This document shows, in pieces, positions 2,797 through 63,750 of a DNA stretch of 64,000 nucleotides. A model generated the notes under the pieces. The model did no database searches. It was not told the origin of the DNA and worked only from the letters and a program-made list of their open reading frames with translations. Source of the stretch: Acidobacteriota bacterium (GTDB lineage Bacteria > Acidobacteriota > Thermoanaerobaculia > Gp7-AA8); contig QHVT01000007.1 of NCBI GenBank assembly GCA_003223645.1, positions 106,531 to 170,530 of the forward strand, in the 5' to 3' direction. Numbering within the stretch: position 1 is the stretch's first letter; each line of letters starts with the position of its first letter. The position numbers were made by a program, and so were the translations under genes.

Positions 2797-3023
2797 TCCG
2801 GATCTCGAAACGAGCGCAGAACTTCGTCAGCCGGAATCAGTTCGCCTCGATCTGCCTCAGCCAAAGAGAGCAACAGTTCGGCTTCGGTAGCCGCATCGAG
2901 CTCGAAGCTTTCGTCGGGATCGCGGGCGAGCACGGTCACGACCGAGCCGTCGACGAGAGGCTCACCTTCGATCTCGATGTGCCCGGATACAACCTTTCCA
3001 GATGTCACTCGCATGAATCTCAT
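2793..3023 (-). CDS. putative antitoxin (ParD/RelB-like) partner of ParE toxin
   Basis: 76-aa acidic protein immediately upstream and overlapping toxin gene (ATGA-type overlap); ELLLSLAEADRGELIPADEVL C-terminal region. Confidence 0.55.
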   Translation of the reverse strand: MRFMRVTSGKVVSGHIEIEGEPLVDGSVVTVLARDPDESFELDAATEAELLLSLAEADRGELIPADEVLRSFRDPD

Positions 3024-3041
3024 TTTACGCCGCGCCGGCGA

Positions 3042-5033
3042 TCAAGTGACGTCGACTTCGATCCGCGCGGGCGTCGATCCCGTTTGCGCGAACCACGTCA
3101 CTTTGTTAGCGACGCAGTCGAGCTCGATGATGTAGCGGCCGGGATCGAGCGGCGCGAGGTCGAACGAGATGGTCGTCTCTTCCTGCGGCGCGAGCGCGCG
3201 ATCGAGCGGCTGCCACGCGTAGTCGAAGCGGATCAGCCGTCCGTTTTCGGCGTACAGGTGCGCGCCGAGGACGACGCCGCCGTAGAGAACGTCGGAGGGG
3301 AGCCACTTTGCACGGCCGATATTGCGCACGGTCGCGCGCACCGTCATGCCGGTGATCGATGCGTCGATCGATGCGCGCAGGCCCGCGGGATGACGACTGT
3401 CGATTTCTTCCGCGCCCGCCTTTGTCAGAAAGAAGTCGCGGACGTTGTGGAGAAACGCGCGGGTCGACTCGGCCCAGCGCGCGTACGTTGCGCCGGCGGC
3501 GAGGAGGTCGTCGAACTCGGCGAGCGAGACGTGGAAGGGCGGGACGTTGTAGGCGGCAATTTTCAGATCGGCGAAGCCGAGGCGCTGCGCGGCGTCCCAG
3601 ATCGCGTGAATGTCGACGTCGTTCTCGACGACGCCATACGTGCGCATCTCGTACTGCGACTGCGCGGTCGTCGAATGCAGCGGCCCCGGCTCTGCGAATG
3701 CGGCGATGCCGCCGGGCTTCAGCACGCGTCCGAACTCGCGCAGCACTTCTTCCGGATTCGGCGCGTGATGAAACGCGTCGAAGCAGACGATGCGATCGAC
3801 GCTCGCGTCGGGAAGGTCAATGTGTTGTCCATCGAAGACGAGGAAGCGCGGCTCGGGACGCGTGCCGATCGGCGGCTGCCGCGCGAACAATTCACGCGCG
3901 ATGTTCAGCGCGGTGGGGGAGACGTCGAGCAGGATCGTGTTGCATCCGAGCTGCGCGAGGAAGCGCGAGAGCCATCCCGTGCCCGCGCCGTATTCGAGCA
4001 CGGTCATTCCGGGAGTGAGGTTCAGTCCCTGGATCGTGACGCCGAGGTTGATCAGCAACTGCGGCGCATCCTCGGCGCGCGAGAACGGCTTGGCGAGGTG
4101 ATCTTCCCAGTCGCTGAGCGAAGCGAAATACGCCTCGGCGGTCCGGTTGAGTTCTTCGATCGACGTGGTGGCGATCATCTGTTTTACGTCGATTACTTGT
4201 GGAGCGGCGGCCGCCCCCGGCCGCCGAAACGGAACGGCGTCGATCGCTGGGACGTTTGTTTTTTCGGCGGCCGAGGGCGGCCGCCGCTCCACAGACTCGA
4301 GCTGCGCCCGACGTTGCGCGTAAACGATCACCGAATCCAGATCCCCATGCTTCGAGAAAACCACGTGCGGCGAGTCGAATCCCGCGTCCTGCAGAATCGC
4401 GAATACCTCGTTGATGTCGTAGGTGTTGCTCTCAATGAACGGCTCCGCCGCCGGTTTTCGTCGCAACACGTTGATCGCGGCGTTCACGCCCGGCACGCGT
4501 GCGCGCGCCTTGCGTGAGACGGAAACGAGCGGCGAGAGCTCCGCGCGATACGGAAACTGGAACACGCCGGTGCCGCCTTCGCGCACGCGCTTCGTCAGCG
4601 TGCGCAGCAGGTCGACGCCTTCGCCTCGCGGCAGTCGCTGCAGGACAAGAAAGCAGTTGACGAGATCGAACGTCCGCTCATGGAGCTCGCGTTGCAGCTC
4701 GACGTTCGTCACGCCCGCTTTCGCGATGTGCGTGCGCGCGGTGTCGAGCATCGACTGCGAGATGTCGACGCCGGTGACGTTCGCCGCGCGGCGTGCAAAC
4801 GGAATGAGCAATCGTCCGACGCCGCATCCGTACTCCAGCACCGTCTCCGGAGCGAAGTGCGGCGCGACGCGCGCACGCACGATGCCGTACAGCTCCGACA
4901 CGTACGCTTCTCCGCTGTCGAAGAACTCCGCCTCGGCCGCGGCATCGAAATGTTCGCGCAGGTAGCGCGCGTGTGTGAGGACCGCGAAGTACGGCTCGCG
5001 CGCGGCGAACGCGTCCCACGCGGCGATGTTCAT
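3042..5033 (-). CDS. fused tandem class I SAM-dependent methyltransferase (two MTase domains plus ~170-aa C-terminal domain); linker encoded by a palindromic repeat element
   Basis: Two glycine-rich SAM motifs (VLEYGCGVGRLL and VLEYGAGTGWLSRFL; DRIVCFDAFHH...LKPGGIAAFAEP); continuous 663-aa ORF; residues ~246-280 (ERRPPSAAEKTNVPAIDAVPFRRPGAAAAPQ) are encoded by repeat at 4198-4293. Confidence 0.7.
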   Translation of the reverse strand: MNIAAWDAFAAREPYFAVLTHARYLREHFDAAAEAEFFDSGEAYVSELYGIVRARVAPHFAPETVLEYGCGVGRLLIPFARRAANVTGVDISQSMLDTARTHIAKAGVTNVELQRELHERTFDLVNCFLVLQRLPRGEGVDLLRTLTKRVREGGTGVFQFPYRAELSPLVSVSRKARARVPGVNAAINVLRRKPAAEPFIESNTYDINEVFAILQDAGFDSPHVVFSKHGDLDSVIVYAQRRAQLESVERRPPSAAEKTNVPAIDAVPFRRPGAAAAPQVIDVKQMIATTSIEELNRTAEAYFASLSDWEDHLAKPFSRAEDAPQLLINLGVTIQGLNLTPGMTVLEYGAGTGWLSRFLAQLGCNTILLDVSPTALNIARELFARQPPIGTRPEPRFLVFDGQHIDLPDASVDRIVCFDAFHHAPNPEEVLREFGRVLKPGGIAAFAEPGPLHSTTAQSQYEMRTYGVVENDVDIHAIWDAAQRLGFADLKIAAYNVPPFHVSLAEFDDLLAAGATYARWAESTRAFLHNVRDFFLTKAGAEEIDSRHPAGLRASIDASITGMTVRATVRNIGRAKWLPSDVLYGGVVLGAHLYAENGRLIRFDYAWQPLDRALAPQEETTISFDLAPLDPGRYIIELDCVANKVTWFAQTGSTPARIEVDVT
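4198..4293. repeat. palindromic element family B, copy 1 (inside dual-MTase CDS); copy 2 at 16172-16244
   Basis: tgtggagcggcggccgcc-cccggccgccga ... cggcggccgagggcggccgccgctccaca with ~30-bp arms; second copy has a shorter centre. Confidence 0.8.
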
Positions 5034-5377
5034 GCCTTCGCTGCGAACGCCGTCATCGCCTCGTCTTCACTCTCGTAGACCTGAAACATCGGAAGGAGAT
5101 TGGTGAGGCGGAGGGTCTTGGTCACGCGGTCCTGCGGCTTGAGCAGGCGCAGCGAAGCGCCGCGGCGTTGCGAGTCGCGGAACGCCTGCACCAGCTCGCC
5201 GAGGCCGTTGCTGTCGATGTAATCCATCTCGGAGAGATTGAGGAGAATCTTCTTCCCGCCGGAGTCGAGAATCTCGGCGATGATCTGCGGCAGCACCGAG
5301 TCGCCCACCCCGATCGCGAGCCTCCCGCGAAAGTCGACGATCGTCACATCCTTTGATTTGCGTACGGCAATGTCCAT
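5030..5377 (-). CDS. STAS-domain anti-sigma-factor antagonist (SpoIIAA/RsbV-like)
   Basis: 115 aa; IVDFRGRL...LNLSEMDYIDSNGLGELV STAS signature with conserved Ser; stop overlaps start of downstream dual MTase. Confidence 0.8.
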   Translation of the reverse strand: MDIAVRKSKDVTIVDFRGRLAIGVGDSVLPQIIAEILDSGGKKILLNLSEMDYIDSNGLGELVQAFRDSQRRGASLRLLKPQDRVTKTLRLTNLLPMFQVYESEDEAMTAFAAKA

Positions 5378-5396
5378 GGGGCGGGATCATATGCGC

Positions 5397-5507
5397 AGAG
5401 GCTCACAGGCTCAAAGGCGCATGGGCTCAAAGGCGCAGAGGCTCAAAGGCTCATGGGCGCATAGCGGTTTCTCTCTGAGCCTATGCGCCTGTGAGCCTAT
5501 GCGCCTG
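5397..5507. repeat. octamer tandem array (GGCKCANN x8) followed by inverted octamers (TGAGCCTA/TGCGCCTG x2 each) in divergent promoter region of STAS gene and response-regulator operon
   Basis: ggctcaca ggctcaaa ggcgcatg ggctcaaa ggcgcaga ggctcaaa ggctcatg ggcgcata ... tgagccta tgcgcctg tgagccta tgcgcctg. Confidence 0.8.
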
Positions 5508-7474: not shown

Positions 7475-7498
7475 GGTCTCGTGCGCATTCGCGATACG

Positions 7499-7582
7499 TT
7501 TGTGGGTGCCGCTGCCCTCAGCGGCACCGCGACCGCTGAGGGCAGCGGTCGCCACAGCTGAGGGCAGCGGTCGCCACAAAGG
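7499..7582. repeat. palindromic element family D, copy 1; copy 2 at 12664-12764
   Basis: tttgtgggtgccgctgccctcagcggcaccgcgaccgctgagggcagcggtcgccaca(gctgagggcagcggtcgccaca)aa; both copies in 3' intergenic gaps. Confidence 0.8.
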
Positions 7583-7588
7583 TTACGC

Positions 7589-8293: not shown

Positions 8294-8302
8294 CGCGCTT
8301 TT

Positions 8303-8364
8303 GGTGTGGGGCAGGCTTTCCAGCCTGCCTCCCGGGGCACAGGCTGGAAAGCCTGTGCCACACC
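8303..8364. repeat. palindromic element family C, copy 1; copy 2 at 33206-33265 flanked by 20-bp direct repeats
   Basis: ggtgtggggcaggctttccagcctgcc-tcccgggg-cacaggctggaaagcctgtgccacacc; shares CCCGGGRG centre with family A. Confidence 0.8.
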
Positions 8365-8377
8365 AGCGCGGCCTATA

Positions 8378-10382: not shown

Positions 10383-10825
10383 AGCTGCGCGTCGCGACCG
10401 CGGACGACGCGCGTTGGATCAACGAGCGCTACGCCGAGGTGCGATTCCTCCCGTCCGATCTCTCGCACGAAGTCATCGTGATCGCGTCGATCGACGACGA
10501 GCCCGCAGGCCTCGGACGCATCGTCGACGTCGACGAACACTCGTGCGAGCTGGGAGGCATGCTCGTGTTCGAGCGGTTCCGCGGCCGCGGCGTCGCGCGC
10601 GCGATCATCGACGAGCTCCTCCGCCACGCGCGCGGACGCGACGTGTACTGCATCCCGTTCGCGGAGTTGGAAGCGCTCTACGCAAGCGCGGGATTCACGC
10701 GCGCAAGCGAAGCGCCGCGCGAGGTGCGGGAGAAGTTCGAATGGTGTCAGCGGACGTATGAGAAGCCGGTGATCCTCACCGTCATCCTGAGGCGCAAAGA
10801 CGCCGAAGGATCTCAGGATACGTAG
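10379..10825 (+). CDS. GNAT-family N-acetyltransferase
   Basis: GLGRIVDVDEHSCELGGMLVFERFRGRGVARAIIDELL acetyl-CoA-binding R/Q-x-x-G-x-G/A motif; GTG start overlapping upstream stop (GTGA). Confidence 0.7.
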   Translation: MKLRVATADDARWINERYAEVRFLPSDLSHEVIVIASIDDEPAGLGRIVDVDEHSCELGGMLVFERFRGRGVARAIIDELLRHARGRDVYCIPFAELEALYASAGFTRASEAPREVREKFEWCQRTYEKPVILTVILRRKDAEGSQDT

Positions 10826-10857
10826 CTTGAGATCCTTCGCCGTCTGCGCGGCTCAGG
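10783..10857. terminator. ~31-bp imperfect inverted repeat between convergent genes; putative bidirectional terminator hairpin
   Basis: cctgaggcgcaaagacgccgaaggatctcag ... cttgagatccttcgccgtctgcgcggctcagg; spans GNAT stop (10825) and thioesterase stop (10868); no clear U-tract. Confidence 0.4.
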
Positions 10858-10867
10858 ATGACGAGAG

Positions 10868-14752: not shown

Positions 14753-16159
14753 TCAGTTCCAAACCCCGACCAATCTTCGGTTCCACCAGTTGCCCGTGCG
14801 CGCGCGCTCTTCGCGCGTCGTGAACCAGTACTGCCACAGCACCGCGCGCACCTCGCGCGGCGGTTGCTTCGCGAACGGATTGCCGCGAAACAGACGCAAC
14901 ACGTCGGGATCGTTTTCGATGAGGCGCTGCTCGACCGCGAGCACCCACGGATTGTCGGATGGCGTGCCGAGCGACGCGAACCAGAGGTTCCAGTCGAAGC
15001 GCGGCTGATACGGCGCGTAAATGCCGGGCGCGCGGCGCGGGTCCTGCGGTTTGAAGCGGAACGGATAGGCGATCCAGGTTCGTCCGTCGCGCGTGCCCTG
15101 AAACTCAATTTCGTAACGCTGCCGCGTCATCACCGCGAAGAGGCCGTAGTTGTTGACGATGCGGAACTGCGCGATCGGATCGAAGCGCGTGAAAAACATC
15201 GCGATCGAGAGGGTGAAGATCAGCGGCAGGACGATCAGCTGCGGGATCGCGAAGCGGCGTTGCGGCATCTCGACGGGCGCGCGGTCTTCGAGCAACAGGA
15301 TGCCGAGGGCGAGGACGAGATAGTTGAGAAACGCGTAGTTTGCGGTGAGGATGATGCCGATCTGCAGCGGAGTCGTGATCGCGAACGCGACGAGGCGCGC
15401 GCGTTTCGACGGAATGAACAGCAACCAGCAGACGAACAGCTCGGCGAGCAACGTCACCAGTGCGGTCGCGGCGTGGAACCAGTGCGGGAAGTGCTGCACG
15501 TGCCACGCGATCCACGTCGGCAGCGGACCGTTCTCGTAGTACTTGTCCATCGCCGTGAGATTGCGCCACTGCTCATCGCCGCTGAGGATCTTCACGACGC
15601 CGGACTCGAAGTAGATGCGAAACCACTCCCACTGCAGAAGAAAAACGGCGGCGCGCGTCGGCGGATCATGCGCGCCGATGCGCGGCAGAAATCCGCGCGG
15701 CGCGAGAAAGAGCGAAAGGAACGCCGCCTCGAGCAGCATCCCGTCCGATTGATATCCCGAGAAATCCTGCGCCGCGCTGACGAACGAGAGGAAGCAAATC
15801 AGCGCGACGCCGATCGACACTCGCGGCCACAAGTTGAAGATGATGGCGAGCGACGCCGCGAGTCCCGCGACGACGAGCAGCGTCAGCGCCGTCCGGCTCG
15901 CATCGATCCAGAGCACCGAAGGAATCAGCCAATACGCACGCGCGCCGACGACCTGCTTCGCGTACAAGAGGTAGTCGCGCGCCGGCAGAATCCCGCGCGG
16001 CCCGATCAGTCCGTGAATCTGAAACCAGAGTGCGTAAAACGCGGAAAAGAAAATCGCGCCCAGCGCGCGCAGCCATAACCAGCGCGCGGTGAGAAACGGT
16101 GCCGCGTCGCGAAACCAGCGCGCGAGGAAGGGGCGGTCGGAGGGGACGCTTTCGAACAC
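14753..16159 (-). CDS. lipase maturation factor (LMF/DUF1222) family polytopic membrane protein; start uncertain (GTG 16159 or 16147; track start 16243 lies inside REP)
   Basis: Multi-TM body and C-terminal VLWQYWFTTREERARTGNWWNRR typical of LMF family. Confidence 0.65.
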   Translation of the reverse strand: MFESVPSDRPFLARWFRDAAPFLTARWLWLRALGAIFFSAFYALWFQIHGLIGPRGILPARDYLLYAKQVVGARAYWLIPSVLWIDASRTALTLLVVAGLAASLAIIFNLWPRVSIGVALICFLSFVSAAQDFSGYQSDGMLLEAAFLSLFLAPRGFLPRIGAHDPPTRAAVFLLQWEWFRIYFESGVVKILSGDEQWRNLTAMDKYYENGPLPTWIAWHVQHFPHWFHAATALVTLLAELFVCWLLFIPSKRARLVAFAITTPLQIGIILTANYAFLNYLVLALGILLLEDRAPVEMPQRRFAIPQLIVLPLIFTLSIAMFFTRFDPIAQFRIVNNYGLFAVMTRQRYEIEFQGTRDGRTWIAYPFRFKPQDPRRAPGIYAPYQPRFDWNLWFASLGTPSDNPWVLAVEQRLIENDPDVLRLFRGNPFAKQPPREVRAVLWQYWFTTREERARTGNWWNRRLVGVWN

Positions 16160-16252
16160 GCTCGATTGTAGTGTGGAGCGGCGGCCGCCTCGGCCGCCGA
16201 CTTCTCGCGAGAAACCGGCGGCTGAGGGCGGCCGCCGCTCCACAATTCTTCG

Positions 16253-18463
16253 TTACGCCGCCGCCGCCACCGTCCCGATCGCCGCGAGCAGCTCCGTCAG
16301 CTCGTACGGCTTCATCAGCGCGAGGATCCGTTTCTTCGCGCAGCCGATCGTCAGCTCGACGTGTCCCGTCGACAGAACGATCGGCAGGTCCTCGTGCTCG
16401 ACGCGCAGCAGTCCCACGAGATCGATTCCGTTTCCATCCGGCAGGTTCACGTCGATGATCGCGACCTCGGGTTGAATGCGGCGTGCGGCCTCGCACACTT
16501 CGGCCGCGCAGCGCACCCACGTCGTCTCGTATCCCTCCGCCGTCAGCAGCGCTTCGAGCCCGGCGCCGACGGAGTGATCGTCTTCGACGAGGAGGATGCG
16601 TTTCACTCCCGTGGTCGTGCAACCGAGCGGTTGCACGACCGGAGTCGCGGACTCCGCGGCCGGGACGAGCGCGTGAAATGCGGCTCCGCCTTCCGGCCGG
16701 TTCTCGACCGTCAGCGCGCCGCCCTGCCGCTCCATGAGGCGCCGCGCGATGGCGAGACCGAGTCCCGTGCCGTTGCGCTTCGTCGTGTACAGCGGCTCGA
16801 AGATGCGGTCCATCATCTGCGGCGCGATGCCGGAGCCGCTGTCGGCGACGGTGATGCGCAGGAACTCGCCGTCCGCGCCGAGGGAGACGCCGACGTCGAT
16901 CGTGCCCGCAACGGTGATCGCTTCGCGCGCGTTGAAGACGAGATTCGTGATGACCTGCTCGAGATGTTCGCGGTCGCCGCGCAGGAATCGCACGCGCGAC
17001 TCGATCGAGCTGCTGAGCAAGATCGACGGCGGCAGCGCTGCGCCGAGCTGTGCGAGAAATGCCGGCAGCCAGCGCCGCACGTCGACGGTGAAAAGCTGCG
17101 GCTCTTTCGGATTGGCGAAGCGCAGGATCTCCTGCGACGCGCGCTTGCCGCGGCTGATCGCGCGGCGGATGTGGTCGAGCGCGTCGTCGACGCCGTGGGC
17201 GGCGGGAACGTTGCGCGCGATGACTTCGACGAACGGCTGGATGCCCATCAGCACGTTGTTGAATTCGTGCGCGAGCGACGCCGCGACCTGCCCGAGGCTG
17301 TTGAGCTGCTTCGCCTGTTCGAGCTTGCGCGCGATGTTGCGCTGCTCCGTAACGTCGCGCGCCATGCCGATCGTGCCGGACATCACGCCGTCGACGAAGC
17401 GCGGCTGCAGCGACACTTCGACCGTGACGACTTCTCCCGATCGCGCGGGCAAGTCGTACTCGCGGATGACCCGCGAGTCGTTGGGCGCGTGTTGCAGCGC
17501 GGGCGGCATCGCATGCGGCGTGAACAGCTCCGTGAACGGACGGCCGATCCATTCTTCGATGCCATATCCGGTGCTGCGCTCGAAGCTGCGGCTCAGCGAA
17601 ACGAAGCGGCCTTCGCGATCGAGCGTGAAGAGGATGTCGGTGACGTCTTCGACGAGCTCGCGGTAGCGCTGCTCGGATGCTTCCAAGGCCTGCTGCGCGC
17701 GCACCTTCTCGGTGATGTCGCGCGCGATGACCTGCACGGCGTCGCGATTGCCGTAGCGAAGCGGCAGCGCGGCGACTTCGACGTCCAGCAGCGATCCGTC
17801 GACGCGAACGATGCGCTCGCGAATGTACGGAACGCTCTCGCCGGCATTGAGCTGTCCGAAGCGATCGCGTACATCCTGCTGATTGCTCGGATCGACGAAC
17901 GACAGGACGGTCCGGCCGATGATCTCCGATTCGCTCTTCGCGCCGAGCAGCTGCACGAACGCCTGATTGACATAGGCGAACGTTCCGTCGACGTGGACGC
18001 CGATGCAGTCGGGCGACAGCTCGACCATCCGCCGGAAGTTCTCGCGGCTCTCCCGCGACGCCTCCTCGGCCGCATGCTCGCGCGTGATGTCGACCATCAC
18101 GCCGAACAATTCGACCGCCACTCCGTCCACGGAATGCACGTTCACGTAGTCGCGCAGCCACACGTCGTGGCCGTCGGCGGCGACCATGCGATAGACGAGC
18201 TCGTGATCGCGGCAGGCCAGCGTCTCGTTGTGGCAGAGCATGGCGACGTGCTCGTCCTCAGGGTGAAGATGCGAGACCCAGAACTGTGGCTCGTTCAGCC
18301 AGCGCTCGACCGGATATCCGAGAAGCGTCTCGGCTGCCGGGCTCACGTACGTGAACTTGAAATTTTTTGCGGACGCGGACCAGGCAATGGCCGGCATCGC
18401 ATCGAGCAGACGCGAGCGGCGCTCCTCCGGGCAGTTTGTGGACTGGTGCATAGCAGTAACCAT
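16253..18463 (-). CDS. hybrid sensor histidine kinase: 3x PAS - HisKA - HATPase_c - C-terminal receiver
   Basis: 736 aa; repeated PAS cores, SLAHEFNNVLMGI H-box, NLVFNAREA, DSGSGIAP, GTGLGLAIARRL, then RILLVEDD...DVNLPDGNGIDL receiver. Confidence 0.85.
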   Translation of the reverse strand: MVTAMHQSTNCPEERRSRLLDAMPAIAWSASAKNFKFTYVSPAAETLLGYPVERWLNEPQFWVSHLHPEDEHVAMLCHNETLACRDHELVYRMVAADGHDVWLRDYVNVHSVDGVAVELFGVMVDITREHAAEEASRESRENFRRMVELSPDCIGVHVDGTFAYVNQAFVQLLGAKSESEIIGRTVLSFVDPSNQQDVRDRFGQLNAGESVPYIRERIVRVDGSLLDVEVAALPLRYGNRDAVQVIARDITEKVRAQQALEASEQRYRELVEDVTDILFTLDREGRFVSLSRSFERSTGYGIEEWIGRPFTELFTPHAMPPALQHAPNDSRVIREYDLPARSGEVVTVEVSLQPRFVDGVMSGTIGMARDVTEQRNIARKLEQAKQLNSLGQVAASLAHEFNNVLMGIQPFVEVIARNVPAAHGVDDALDHIRRAISRGKRASQEILRFANPKEPQLFTVDVRRWLPAFLAQLGAALPPSILLSSSIESRVRFLRGDREHLEQVITNLVFNAREAITVAGTIDVGVSLGADGEFLRITVADSGSGIAPQMMDRIFEPLYTTKRNGTGLGLAIARRLMERQGGALTVENRPEGGAAFHALVPAAESATPVVQPLGCTTTGVKRILLVEDDHSVGAGLEALLTAEGYETTWVRCAAEVCEAARRIQPEVAIIDVNLPDGNGIDLVGLLRVEHEDLPIVLSTGHVELTIGCAKKRILALMKPYELTELLAAIGTVAAAA

Positions 18464-33183: not shown

Positions 33184-33285
33184 TGTTAACCAAATCCCGT
33201 CTCATGGTGGTGTAGGACAGGCTTTCCAGCCTGTCCCCCCGGAGGCGGGCTGGAAAGCCCGCACTACGCCGGGGCTGTTAACCAA
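33184..33285. mobile_element. family C palindromic element bounded by exact 20-bp direct duplication TGTTAACCAAATCCCGTCTC (MITE-like insertion with target-site duplication)
   Basis: tgttaaccaaatcccgtctc at 33184-33203 and again at 33266-33285, bracketing the 60-bp palindrome in the desaturase / beta-lactamase-family divergent intergenic region. Confidence 0.6.
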
Positions 33286-51201: not shown

Positions 51202-51297
51202 CGTGTCATTCCGAGCCGCGCAGACGGCGAGGAATCTCCCGCCTCGCGAGCTGCAGGGGATTCCTCGCCGTCGTTGCGGCTCGGAATGACACGGTGA

Positions 51298-54543: not shown

Positions 54544-54948
54544 GTCCGAATCCTCTCACAGCCCACAACGCGTACGCCGTATCCAGCAGCGCCACCATCG
54601 CCTCGATGCGCTCCTCCTGCGTCGCCGCGAGCGCATCCTCGACGTCCTGCCGGACGATCTCCTCCTCGGAGCGAACGAGCGGCATACGGCGAGACTTTGC
54701 GCGTTGATTCGTCATTTGTCCGCCGCGTACGCCAACCCGTCCGGCTCCGTCCCCGTCTCTACTTCTCCGGCGAAAAACGCCGCGGCGAATTTCATGCACG
54801 GCATTGTAGGGCGGGGGCTTTGGACTGCGGTGACAACGTCACCGCTTTTTTGATAGGGCTCCGTGCATGCTCTTGAAAGCGGCGGCGTAGCCGCCGCAGT
54901 CCAAAGGACCCGCCCGCCCCACGGGAGGCGGGCAGGATGCCCGCTCTC

Positions 54949-56749: not shown

Positions 56750-56950
56750 CGCCTTCCTCGGTCACGCAGTTGCGCGGTCACTCGGTTGCGCGGGGAAGCA
56801 GCGCCGCGCAACCGAGCGACTACGCAACCGAGCAACCGGGTGAGGGCGTAGCGCCTTCCTCGGTTACGCAGTTGCGCGGTCACTCGGTTGCGCGGGGAAG
56901 CAGCGCCGGGCAACTGAGCGACTGCGCAACCGAGCAACCGGGTGAGGGCG
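56747..56950. repeat. 2 x 102-bp tandem direct repeat, each unit with internal dyads
   Basis: Unit agcgccttcctcggtcacgcagttgcgcggtcactcggttgcgcggggaagcagcgccgcgcaaccgagcgactacgcaaccgagcaaccgggtgagggcgt repeated with few mismatches; contains ctcggttgcgcgg...ccgcgcaaccgag 13-bp inverted repeat; fills the whole gap between convergent genes. Confidence 0.85.
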
Positions 56951-59549: not shown

Positions 59550-59677
59550 TGCGCGATGCCCGGATATCGATCGAAAAGAGGAGAGCGGGCATCCTGCCCG
59601 CCTTCCGCGGGCGGGCGGGACGCCCGCTCTCCTCGGTGCGGGGAGCAGGTGCCCCGTGTGATGCGAACATCTCATCA

Positions 59678-63655: not shown

Positions 63656-63750
63656 CCTCCCACCCGATGGCGGATCGCGGATGGCAGATGGCGGAGCGCA
63701 CGATCACGCGCATCGTTCTTCCGCCATCTGCCATCTGCCATCTGCCATCT
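63656..63750. repeat. heptamer tandem array (GATGGCR x5) and inverted array (CTGCCAT x4) forming a long hairpin in the ctaC-ctaD intergenic region
   Basis: gatggcggatcgcggatggcagatggcggagcgca ... ccgccatctgccatctgccatctgccatct. Confidence 0.8.

What the first reader, a model, noticed from the sequence alone, without database searches (positions are those of the whole stretch)
4198..4293. Palindromic repeat (family B) forms the in-frame linker of a fused double methyltransferase
The 96-bp element with ~30-bp perfect arms lies between the two SAM-MTase domains of ORF 3042..5033 and is read through without a stop (ERRPPSAAEK...RRPGAAAAPQ).
- A second copy sits intergenically at 16172-16244, where it produces a spurious N-terminal extension (MERRPPSAAG...) on the LMF gene ORF.
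- This suggests the two MTase domains may once have been separate adjacent genes joined by read-through of a REP element (gene fusion by repeat insertion).
- Alternatively the second domain is translated independently from Met-286 (ATG 4178).
Basis: seen in the sequence. Interest (0 to 1): 0.6.

Follow-up and report, generated by a model that had tools for sequence, protein, structure and literature searches.

The report
Mobile palindrome translated as protein linker
A 96-base mobile palindromic repeat sits in frame in the floppy linker of an anciently fused two-domain methyltransferase; it did not cause the fusion, but close relatives carry different palindromes at this same spot.

Summary
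Window 4198-4293 is a 96-nt inverted repeat with 32-nt arms, 31/32 complementary. It is read without a stop inside ORF 3042..5033(-), between two SAM-methyltransferase domains. A second copy lies between genes at 16172-16244.

The interpretation, gene fusion caused by the repeat, is not supported.
- The fused ~650-aa architecture is conserved in more than 100 homologues down to 54% identity, and in metagenome loci down to about 45%.
- All 71 loci that could be checked have one open frame.
- The distant homologues (55% identity or less) have plain, non-palindromic linkers of about 21 aa.
- Met-286 is Leu in most homologues.

The element is a REP-doublet (REPIN-like) repeat dispersed in Thermoanaerobaculia genomes. 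It is tolerated because it encodes residues 247-279, which match the only disordered stretch of the AlphaFold model (pLDDT below 50 at 245-277).

Unexpectedly, orthologues of 74-92% identity carry at least three or four unrelated palindromes at this linker, and linker content does not follow the gene tree. Intragenic REPs and Rickettsia palindromic elements are already described, so this is a new member of a known kind. The recurrent turnover is a modestly novel twist.

The parts
4198..4293 (-). Family-B palindromic element (REP doublet, REPIN-like), in frame in the methyltransferase gene. It encodes the last base of codon 247 through codon 279 (VERRPPSAAEKTNVPAIDAVPFRRPGAAAAPQ).
   Evidence: (I6). 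Termini are shared with 16172-16244 and with dispersed copies in Thermoanaerobaculia MAGs.
4198..4229 (.). Left arm (32 nt), TGTGGAGCGGCGGCCGCCCCCGGCCGCCGAAA. It contains its own small palindrome GGCGGCCG-CCCC-CGGCCGCC, which is one REP unit.
   Evidence: internal palindrome read from the sequence.
4230..4261 (.). Loop or spacer of 32 nt, unrelated to the spacer of the second copy.
4262..4293 (.). Right arm (32 nt), 31/32 complementary to the left arm.
3042..5033 (-). Single 663-aa ORF: N-terminal class-I SAM-MTase domain, disordered linker, second SAM-MTase domain, then a C-terminal beta-sandwich. It is identical to a protein annotated in NCBI as a hypothetical protein of an Acidobacteria MAG (DMF56_10970).
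   Evidence: P0001, 100% identity; AlphaFold model.
4302..5033 (-). N-terminal MTase module (aa 1-244). It also exists widely as stand-alone proteins of about 250 aa.
3042..4193 (-). Second MTase domain plus C-terminal beta-sandwich (aa 281-663), beginning with the conserved IDVK(K/Q)(L/M)IA motif.
16172..16244 (.). Second family-B copy (73 nt). It is intergenic, lying 8 nt downstream of the stop of the sensor-kinase ORF (16253..18463, -) and upstream of the LMF1-family gene. It is immediately preceded by GTAG on the + strand.
   Evidence: (I14, I21).
14753..16243 (-). LMF1-family ORF whose longest reading starts inside the repeat (spurious N-terminal extension). The first start codon after the repeat is GTG 16159.
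   Evidence: and the sequence.
54809..54915 (.). Copy of a different palindromic family (C: TTTGGACTGCGG...GCCGCCGCAGTCCAAA). This family occupies the methyltransferase linker in homologues L082, L083 and, decayed, L081.
   Evidence: (I4).
5030..5377 (-). STAS-domain gene immediately upstream. Its stop overlaps the MTase start codon, and this arrangement is conserved in the nine homologous loci whose gene tables were shown.

Best explanation
The 96-nt sequence is a non-autonomous palindromic repeat of the REP-doublet (REPIN-like) type. It belongs to a family dispersed in Thermoanaerobaculia (Acidobacteriota) genomes.

It lies in frame in the pre-existing, intrinsically disordered inter-domain linker of an anciently fused two-methyltransferase protein. 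It is translated as a disordered insert of about 32 residues. It persists because it is G+C-rich and stop-free, its length keeps the frame, and the linker tolerates almost any sequence.

It did not create the fusion. The linker of this gene is a recurrent landing or replacement site. In orthologues of 74-92% identity, the whole stretch between the last conserved residue of domain 1 (..RRAQL) and the first of domain 2 (IDVK..) is filled by members of at least three or four different palindromic families. These are intact in some lineages and decaying in others.

Shown: the anatomy, the in-frame reading, the age of the fusion, the dispersal of the family, the disorder of the encoded segment, and the decoupling of linker content from the gene tree.

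Inferred: mobility through a RAYT-type (Y1/HUH) transposase, neutrality of the insert, and the mechanism of replacement.
For: Anatomy: 32-nt arms, each containing a small REP-like palindrome; hairpin of -83 kcal/mol.

Dispersed family: there is a second, intergenic copy in the window. Hits with the full conserved stem TGTGGAGCGGCGGCCGC(T/C)(T/C)CGGCCGCCG were confined to Thermoanaerobaculia MAGs, at about 16 loci. Complete elements are 62-116 nt with variable loops, and many lie at contig ends. Hits in other phyla were single-arm matches.

The fusion is older than the element. Fused forms still exist at 34-54% identity to the N-terminal domain, and stand-alone homologues of about 250 aa are common.

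A hairpin is present only in close relatives. Linker z-scores against same-length windows of the same gene are: WIN -5.4 to -5.9, L001 -5.4, L002 -4.7, L187 -6.4, L189 -5.7, L082 -3.7, L085 -3.6. Homologues of 55% identity or less run from about -2.7 to +2.7, mostly near 0.

Different families occupy the same site:
- B: WIN, L001, L002; variant B2 in L187.
- C: L082, and decayed in L081 and L083.
- D: L084, L003, L004.
- E: L189, L085, L186.
Families C and B2 also occur outside this gene.

Linker content is decoupled from phylogeny:
- L001 and P0005 are 96.5% identical outside the linker but have unrelated linkers.
- L001 and L002 are 80% identical outside the linker but have 95% identical elements.
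- WIN and its sister L081 are 92% identical outside the linker, with unalignable linkers.

Permissive site: in the AlphaFold2 model, pLDDT is below 50 only at residues 245-277, and the element encodes 247-279.

Generality: other B/B2 copies are in frame at inter-domain linkers. One lies between SBP_bac_3 and BPD_transp_1 in L033, and one between Pkinase and PEGA in L105.

Precedent: intragenic REPs, mostly dimers encoding 20-30 aa, and Rickettsia palindromic elements are documented (PMC3733652; PMC10969869).
Against:
- The GTAG or CGTC tag typical of described REP superfamilies flanks only 2 of about 19 complete B/B2 copies, and not the linker copy.
- Family E was seen only in linkers of this gene, so its status as a dispersed repeat is unproven.
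- Linker length stays at about 21-25 aa in most relatives despite different elements. This means replacement rather than simple insertion, for which I have no demonstrated mechanism.
- Relics of B2 arms occur in the 65-67% identity clade (L005, L006). Occupancy of this site is therefore older than the close clade, and some sharing may be vertical.
- Translation of the junction peptide is inferred from the open frame only.
Confidence: 0.8

Rival explanations
1. One reading: two adjacent methyltransferase genes were joined when a REP element in the intergenic spacer came to be read through, so the repeat created the fusion.
For: - The N-terminal module exists widely as a stand-alone protein of about 250 aa, so a fusion did occur at some time.
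- The element fills almost the whole linker.
- Elsewhere (L033), a B2 element forms the linker between a solute-binding domain and a permease domain that are usually separate genes.
Against: - The fusion is present in all 71 loci examined, and in proteins down to 34-54% identity.
- Distant fused homologues have ordinary linkers of the same length without any palindrome.
- The element differs between sisters that are 92-96% identical, so it is far younger than the fusion.
- An ancient fusion through a long-decayed REP cannot be excluded, but nothing supports it.
Confidence: 0.04
2. The ORF is functionally bicistronic. The second domain is translated independently from Met-286 (ATG 4178), and the hairpin acts as an intercistronic structure.
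For: An in-frame ATG lies 17 nt downstream of the hairpin on the mRNA. REP hairpins are known to act on mRNA stability between cistrons (established knowledge; PMC3733652).
Against: - There is no stop codon to end the first product.
- Met-286 is Leu in most homologues.
- No Shine-Dalgarno-like motif precedes it.
- No terminator-like or promoter-like site lies in the gene body.
- Relatives with decayed hairpins keep the same architecture.
Confidence: 0.04
3. A stable mRNA or DNA hairpin at the domain boundary is itself selected, for example to pause ribosomes for co-translational folding of domain 1 or to act as a processing or stability element. Any available REP would be recruited to provide it.
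For: - Several unrelated palindromes occupy exactly the domain boundary in different lineages. Some are perfect, such as the 26-bp stem in L187 and the roughly 24-bp stem in L189.
- The element in L001 and L002 is more conserved (95%) than flanking third codon positions (65-71%).
Against: - Close relatives carry clearly decayed elements or none: L081 z = -1.2, L083 z = -0.9, L003 z = -0.7, L188 z = -1.4.
- All homologues of 55% identity or less lack a hairpin, so the protein does not need one.
- High identity of intact copies is equally explained by recent arrival from a homogeneous genomic repeat pool.
Confidence: 0.1
4. The element is an assembly artefact: a repeat mis-joined into the gene in a metagenome-assembled genome.
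For: Family-B copies often lie at contig ends in MAGs, so they do disturb assembly.
Against: - The element is 96 nt. In my judgement that is short enough for ordinary sequencing reads to span it; this was not checked.
- The frame is preserved.
- The identical 663-aa protein is on record from several sources and on 6 contigs (P0001).
- Independent assemblies of relatives show palindromes at the same position.
Confidence: 0.02

Closest known systems
Intragenic GTAG/CGTC-tagged REPs (Di Nocera et al. 2013, BMC Genomics 14:522; PMC3733652)
   Same: Both are short G+C-rich palindromic repeats that are mostly extragenic, but some copies, mostly dimers, lie inside ORFs and encode 20-30 extra residues. 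The intergenic copy here sits just 3' of the upstream ORF between unidirectional genes, as that paper describes.
   Different: The head of this family is (T)GTGGAG, not a consistent GTAG or CGTC tag: GTAG is adjacent in only 2 of about 19 copies. The host is Thermoanaerobaculia. No RAYT was identified. Here several unrelated families alternate at one intragenic site among orthologues; I saw no such turnover in the passages I read of that paper or of the 2024 MITE review.
REPINs (REP doublets forming hairpins; Bertels and Rainey 2011, PLoS Genet 7:e1002132; PMC3116915)
   Same: [quoted passage not shown] They are multi-copy, with conserved arms and variable spacers.
   Different: REPINs are defined together with a cognate single-copy RAYT and are essentially extragenic. 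Neither the RAYT nor the per-genome population size could be examined here, and a sizeable share of the copies seen are in frame within genes.
Rickettsia palindromic elements (RPEs; Ogata et al. 2000, as summarised in PMC10969869)
   Same: Both are palindromic repeats inserted in frame into unrelated protein-coding genes, translated as extra peptide segments at positions compatible with the fold.
   Different: RPEs are about 100-150 bp, A+T-rich, restricted to Rickettsia, and not known to be sequence-related to this family. In my recollection (not checked here), RPE insertion sites are generally shared and old. Here the site shows rapid turnover between families.
Tandem two-domain SAM methyltransferases such as plant and nematode phosphoethanolamine N-methyltransferases (PDB 5wp4, 5wp5, 4krg)
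   Same: Both have two class-I MTase domains in one chain. These are the best Foldseek matches to the whole model.
   Different: Sequence identity is only 12-15% and TM-scores are low (0.22-0.36). There is no evidence of a shared substrate. This protein has an extra C-terminal beta-sandwich and a STAS-gene partner.

Membership tests
REP / REPIN (RAYT-associated palindromic repeats) | Unit is a short (20-40 bp) imperfect palindrome. | tested here: met
   Each arm contains GGCGGCCG-(3-4 nt)-CGGCCGCC behind a TGTGGAGC head (sequence).
REP / REPIN (RAYT-associated palindromic repeats) | Two units in inverted orientation with a spacer, able to fold into one long hairpin (REPIN). | tested here: met
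   32-nt arms, 97% complementary, 32-nt spacer; -83.1 kcal/mol, z = -11.5.
REP / REPIN (RAYT-associated palindromic repeats) | Many dispersed copies per genome. | tested here: inconclusive
   There are two copies in 64 kb and about 16 loci in six or more Thermoanaerobaculia MAGs.
REP / REPIN (RAYT-associated palindromic repeats) | Predominantly extragenic location. | tested here: inconclusive
   Of about 19 complete B/B2 copies seen, 4 are in linkers of this MTase family (WIN, L001, L002, L187). Two more have Pfam domains on both sides (L033, and L105 at 7513-7570). Up to 3 further copies lie in long ORFs without Pfam support. The sample is biased, because the MTase loci were fetched through the gene.
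REP / REPIN (RAYT-associated palindromic repeats) | Conserved GTAG or CGTC tetranucleotide at one end. | tested here: not met
   GTAG abuts the copy at 16172 and the one in L095 only. The linker copy and most others lack it. The conserved head is instead (T)GTGGAG.
REP / REPIN (RAYT-associated palindromic repeats) | Cognate RAYT (Y1/HUH transposase) gene flanked by the same repeats. | not tested
   The window's ORFs were not scanned for PF01797. A RAYT gene is typically single-copy per genome (abstract of PMC5581495), so it would usually lie outside a 64-kb window.
MITE (miniature inverted-repeat transposable element) | Terminal inverted repeats plus a target-site duplication. | tested here: not met
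   Terminal inverted repeats are present. The flanks of the linker copy (..CTCGAGTC | element | AGTAATC..) and of the copy at 16172 show no direct duplication.
Rickettsia palindromic elements | In-frame insertion in ORFs at structurally permissive positions. | tested here: met
   The frame is open, and the encoded residues 247-279 coincide with the only segment of pLDDT below 50, at 245-277.
Rickettsia palindromic elements | Sequence membership of an RPE family, and a Rickettsia host. | tested here: not met
   The host is an Acidobacteria/Thermoanaerobaculia MAG. Rfam found no match in the window. The composition is G+C-rich. The element works like an RPE but is not one.
Gene fusion created by read-through of an intergenic repeat | Relatives with two separate genes, or fused relatives all sharing the repeat-derived linker. 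| tested here: not met
   All loci have a single ORF. Fused homologues of 55% identity or less have non-palindromic linkers.

The most novel reading that the evidence does not exclude
The inter-domain linker of this methyltransferase is a site-specific hotspot at which REPIN-type elements of different families, sharing GTGGAG...CTCCAC ends, are repeatedly exchanged. The exchange would work like cassette replacement, catalysed by a transposase or driven by hairpin-mediated deletion followed by reinsertion. In this way selfish palindromes would continually rewrite a stretch of coding sequence while the frame and the linker length are kept. More generally, Thermoanaerobaculia REPINs would preferentially colonise disordered linkers and might occasionally weld neighbouring genes together, for example the solute-binding and permease ORF in L033.
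Probability: 0.25. Interest if true: 0.6.

Novelty: new member of a known kind. Interest (0 to 1): 0.35.

Why it matters
This gives a clear case, outside Rickettsia and the Proteobacteria, of selfish palindromic repeats being carried inside an open reading frame of a conserved enzyme gene.
- It suggests why they survive there: the encoded segment is a predicted disordered inter-domain linker.
- It shows that such a linker can turn over by element replacement much faster than the rest of the gene.

In practice it warns annotators about three things. Repeat-derived peptides and spurious N-terminal extensions occur, as in the LMF1-family gene at 14753-16243. The repeats break contigs in MAGs. Linkers that look merely hypervariable may really be successive mobile-element insertions.

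It does not reveal a new mechanism of gene fusion for this gene.

Tried and rejected
- Rfam scan of the whole window: no family reached its gathering score.
- Terminator and promoter scan of 3000-5500: no terminator-like site, and only one promoter-like site, upstream of the STAS gene. I therefore dropped the idea of an internal terminator or promoter.
It proves dispersal in Thermoanaerobaculia but gives no census.
- DNA for P0005, the 96.5%-identical sister of L001 with a different linker, could not be fetched because the sample file is too large. Its assignment to variant B2 rests on my back-translation of the peptide and is an inference only.
- Context of the stand-alone N-domain homologue P0122 could not be looked up because it is not on record. 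Whether any split two-gene version exists next to a C-domain gene remains untested.
- Family E (GGAGGGCGGACGTCTCGTCCGCC) was not found in the window or outside the linker in any fetched locus. I do not claim it is a dispersed repeat.
- GTAG tag: at first it looked promising, since it precedes the copies at 16172 and 54809. It is absent from most copies and was rejected as a family feature.
- My GC3-based screen for in-frame intragenic copies missed the window's own copy because this genome's GC3 is below the 0.8 threshold I set. That screen under-counts, and I relied only on hits confirmed by Pfam domains on both sides.
- Target-site duplication: none was seen at either window copy.
Full report
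1. OBSERVATION.

The sequence is as described. Window 4198-4293 is an inverted repeat with 32-nt arms (TGTGGAGCGGCGGCCGCCCCCGGCCGCCGAAA and its near-complement) around a 32-nt spacer. The arms are 97% complementary (I6), and the single mismatch gives a G-U pair in the mRNA. On the coding (-) strand it folds to -83.1 kcal/mol, z = -11.5 against dinucleotide shuffles.

The 18-nt terminus occurs four times in the window, as the two arms of two elements (4198-4293 and 16172-16244). Shuffles give 0.33 matches. The second copy folds to -67.6 kcal/mol.

ORF 3042..5033(-) is 663 aa and reads through the element as VERRPPSAAEKTNVPAIDAVPFRRPGAAAAPQ. Pfam finds two class-I SAM-methyltransferase domains, at about aa 63-155 and 339-488.

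The second copy begins 8 nt after the stop of a sensor-kinase ORF (16253..18463, -) and lies upstream of an LMF1-family gene. That gene's longest ORF starts at a GTG inside the repeat (MERRPPSAAG...), while the LMF1 domain starts only at aa 163. The extension is almost certainly spurious.

2. THE FUSION IS OLD AND WAS NOT MADE BY THIS ELEMENT.

A protein search returned more than 100 full-length homologues with 99-100% coverage, 54-88% identity and 640-677 aa. They come from Thermoanaerobaculia and other Acidobacteria MAGs. The query itself is recorded as a hypothetical protein of an Acidobacteria MAG.

A scan of metagenome contigs gave 80 loci down to about 45% identity. In the 62 loci where both domain boundaries could be anchored, the linker is always in frame and stop-free. 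It is 13-49 aa long, typically 21-23 aa. Nine further loci fetched by exact protein look-up behave the same way.

A search with the N-terminal module alone found fused forms at only 34-54% identity. It also found many stand-alone proteins of about 250 aa. A fusion did happen, but long ago.

I measured the folding energy of each linker against same-length windows of its own gene.
- The window scores z = -5.4 to -5.9.
- Several close relatives score -3.6 to -6.4.
- Homologues of 55% identity or less score from about -2.7 to +2.7, mostly near 0. They have plain acidic, Pro-rich linkers such as SFAPADRDDEPASIEP....

Met-286 is Leu in most homologues. No Shine-Dalgarno-like motif precedes ATG 4178. 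No terminator-like site lies in the gene. Independent translation of the second domain therefore has no support.

3. WHAT THE ELEMENT IS.

Each arm contains its own small palindrome (GGCGGCCG-loop-CGGCCGCC) behind a TGTGGAGC head. The element is thus two REP-like units in inverted orientation, which is the REPIN architecture.

Matches that continue into the conserved stem TGTGGAGCGGCGGCCGC(T/C)(T/C)CGGCCGCCG were confined to Thermoanaerobaculia MAGs. They occur at about 16 loci in at least six MAGs. Complete elements are 62-116 nt with variable spacers, and many sit at contig ends. Matches in other phyla were single-arm chance hits.

A variant, B2, has a different inner stem (GGCGGGCTTCAGCCCGCCG) and is likewise dispersed. 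Rfam has nothing matching. A target-site duplication is absent. The GTAG tag of the described REP superfamilies abuts only 2 of about 19 copies. No RAYT transposase was sought, since it would rarely lie within 64 kb. Mobility by such an enzyme is an inference from architecture, not a result.

4. WHY IT IS TOLERATED.

An AlphaFold2 model built on the 31-sequence alignment has mean pLDDT 81.8. It shows two Rossmann-type domains and a C-terminal beta-sandwich. The only segment with pLDDT below 50 is residues 245-277. The element encodes residues 247-279, so it lies exactly in the disordered inter-domain linker.

Both strands of the element are free of stops in all frames.

The best whole-chain structural matches are the two-domain phosphoethanolamine N-methyltransferases of plants and nematodes, at low TM-score. 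Tandem methyltransferases in one chain are therefore an established architecture.

5. THE UNEXPECTED PART: TURNOVER AT ONE SITE.

In the clade of 74-92% identity, the whole stretch between ..RRAQL and IDVK.. is occupied by different palindromes:
- Family B in the window (96 nt), and in L001 and L002 (about 60 nt).
- Variant B2 in L187, with a perfect 26-bp stem.
- Family C (GGACTGCGGCGGC...GCCGCCGCAGTCCAAA) in L082, and decayed in L081 and L083.
- Family D (GTGGAGGACAGGCA...TGCCTGTCCTCCAC) in L084, L003 and L004.
- Family E (GGAGGGCGGACGTCTCGTCCGCC...) in L189, L085 and L186.
- Nothing convincing in L188.

Family C has an independent copy in the window at 54809-54915, and B2 has copies elsewhere. 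E was seen only in this linker, so I count three or four families.

A neighbour-joining tree of the protein without the linker places different elements in well-supported sister groups.
- The window (B) and L081/P0003 (C relic) group with 100% bootstrap. They are 92% identical outside the linker, and their linkers cannot be aligned.
- L001 (B) and P0005 are 96.5% identical outside the linker but have unrelated linkers.
- L001 and L002 are only 80% identical outside the linker, with flanking third codon positions 65-71% identical. Yet their elements are 95% identical.

Linker content is thus decoupled from the gene's history. Intact copies must be recent arrivals or be kept uniform by the genomic repeat pool. 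Other lineages show elements in decay.

Arms of B2 survive as relics in the 65-67% identity clade (L005, L006). Colonisation of this site is therefore older than the close clade.

Linker length stays near 21-25 aa, except for 37 aa in the window. New elements therefore replace old ones rather than add to them. I have no demonstrated mechanism for this. Shared GTGGAG...CTCCAC ends in B, D and E are compatible with exchange at conserved ends. They are equally compatible with insertion followed by hairpin-mediated deletion.

6. GENERALITY.

Other B/B2 copies lie in frame at linkers of unrelated proteins.
- One lies between an SBP_bac_3 solute-binding domain and a BPD_transp_1 permease domain in a single 512-aa ORF (L033).
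- One lies between a protein-kinase domain and a PEGA domain (L105).
- Others lie inside two further long ORFs that have no Pfam match.

7. COMPARISON WITH WHAT IS KNOWN.

Intragenic REPs are already described. Di Nocera et al. 2013 report GTAG- and CGTC-tagged REPs inside genes of several species. More than half are dimers encoding 20-30 aa, and the authors argue against functional constraint (PMC3733652). Rickettsia palindromic elements are the classic case of in-frame palindromic repeats in genes (PMC10969869). REPINs supply the doublet architecture (PMC3116915).

The present element works like these. However, it fails the GTAG/CGTC-tag test, it is not an RPE by sequence or host, and its transposase is unknown. 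I file it as a new member of a known kind: an intragenic REP doublet in Acidobacteriota. The alternation of several families at one intragenic site among orthologues is the only aspect I did not find described.

8. VERDICT.
The proposed origin (fusion by repeat insertion) and the alternative (internal start) are not supported.
- Best explanation: a tolerated, translated selfish palindrome in a disordered linker that is a recurrent landing or replacement site. Confidence 0.8.
- Interest is moderate to low (0.35). The result is ordinary in kind, but the turnover phenomenon is tidy and testable.

Noticed in passing
window 10780-10863 and 51202-51293: Two copies of another palindromic family with about 41-nt arms beginning CGTCATCCTGAGG / CGTGTCATTCCGAGC. 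The head resembles the CGTC tag of described REPs (I2 and I3).
   Followed up: no
window 8302-8365 and 33209-33270: Palindromes of the type GG(G/A)CAGGCTTTCCAGCCTG(T)CC (I10 and I12). They resemble family D, which fills the methyltransferase linker in L084, L003 and L004. Only a weak match, with 3 mismatches, was found.
   Followed up: partly
window 54806-54915: Copy of family C (TTTGGACTGCGG...CCGCAGTCCAAA), immediately preceded by GTAG. The same family forms the linker of the orthologous methyltransferase in L082 and L083, and a decayed form occurs in L081.
   Followed up: yes
window 56752-56947, 63666-63749, 5393-5504, 7491-7588, 59578-59634: Further inverted or tandem-like repeats, including a pair of 94-nt arms at 72% complementarity and GATGGCA-type repeats. 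The window is unusually rich in palindromic repeats of several families.
   Followed up: no
L033 15-1550 (-), element at 671-723: A single 512-aa ORF joins an SBP_bac_3 solute-binding domain (aa 52-263) to a BPD_transp_1 permease domain (aa 327-508). A B2 palindrome encodes the linker (aa 276-294). This could be a real case of the repeat-as-fusion-linker idea. I did not check whether relatives have separate genes.
   Followed up: partly
L105 7077-8000 (-), element at 7513-7570; also L105 6279-6371 and L101 3285-3355: Family-B copies in frame between a protein-kinase domain and a PEGA domain, and inside two other long ORFs that have no Pfam match.
   Followed up: partly
window 5030-5377 (-) and 3042-5033 (-): A STAS-domain (anti-sigma-factor-antagonist type) gene overlaps the start codon of the methyltransferase gene. 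The pairing is conserved in the nine homologous loci whose gene tables were shown, often next to a two-component system. This suggests a functional link between the STAS protein and the double methyltransferase.
   Followed up: no
window 14753-16243 (-): The longest ORF of the LMF1-family gene starts inside the repeat. About 28 N-terminal residues are probably not real, and the first start codon after the repeat is GTG 16159.
   Followed up: partly
L086, L088, L115, L123, L127, L129, L165 (Thermoanaerobaculia MAG contigs): Family-B arms lie at or within a few bases of the ends of the fetched stretches. L115 is a whole 1,917-nt contig, so there the arm is at a true contig end. This suggests the repeats break short-read assemblies.
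   Followed up: no
window 3042-5033 (-), protein model md51f07cdcf9b: The best whole-chain structural matches are the two-domain phosphoethanolamine N-methyltransferases of plants and nematodes (PDB 5wp5, 5wp4, 4krh), at 12-15% identity and low TM-score. The substrate of this enzyme is unknown.
   Followed up: no
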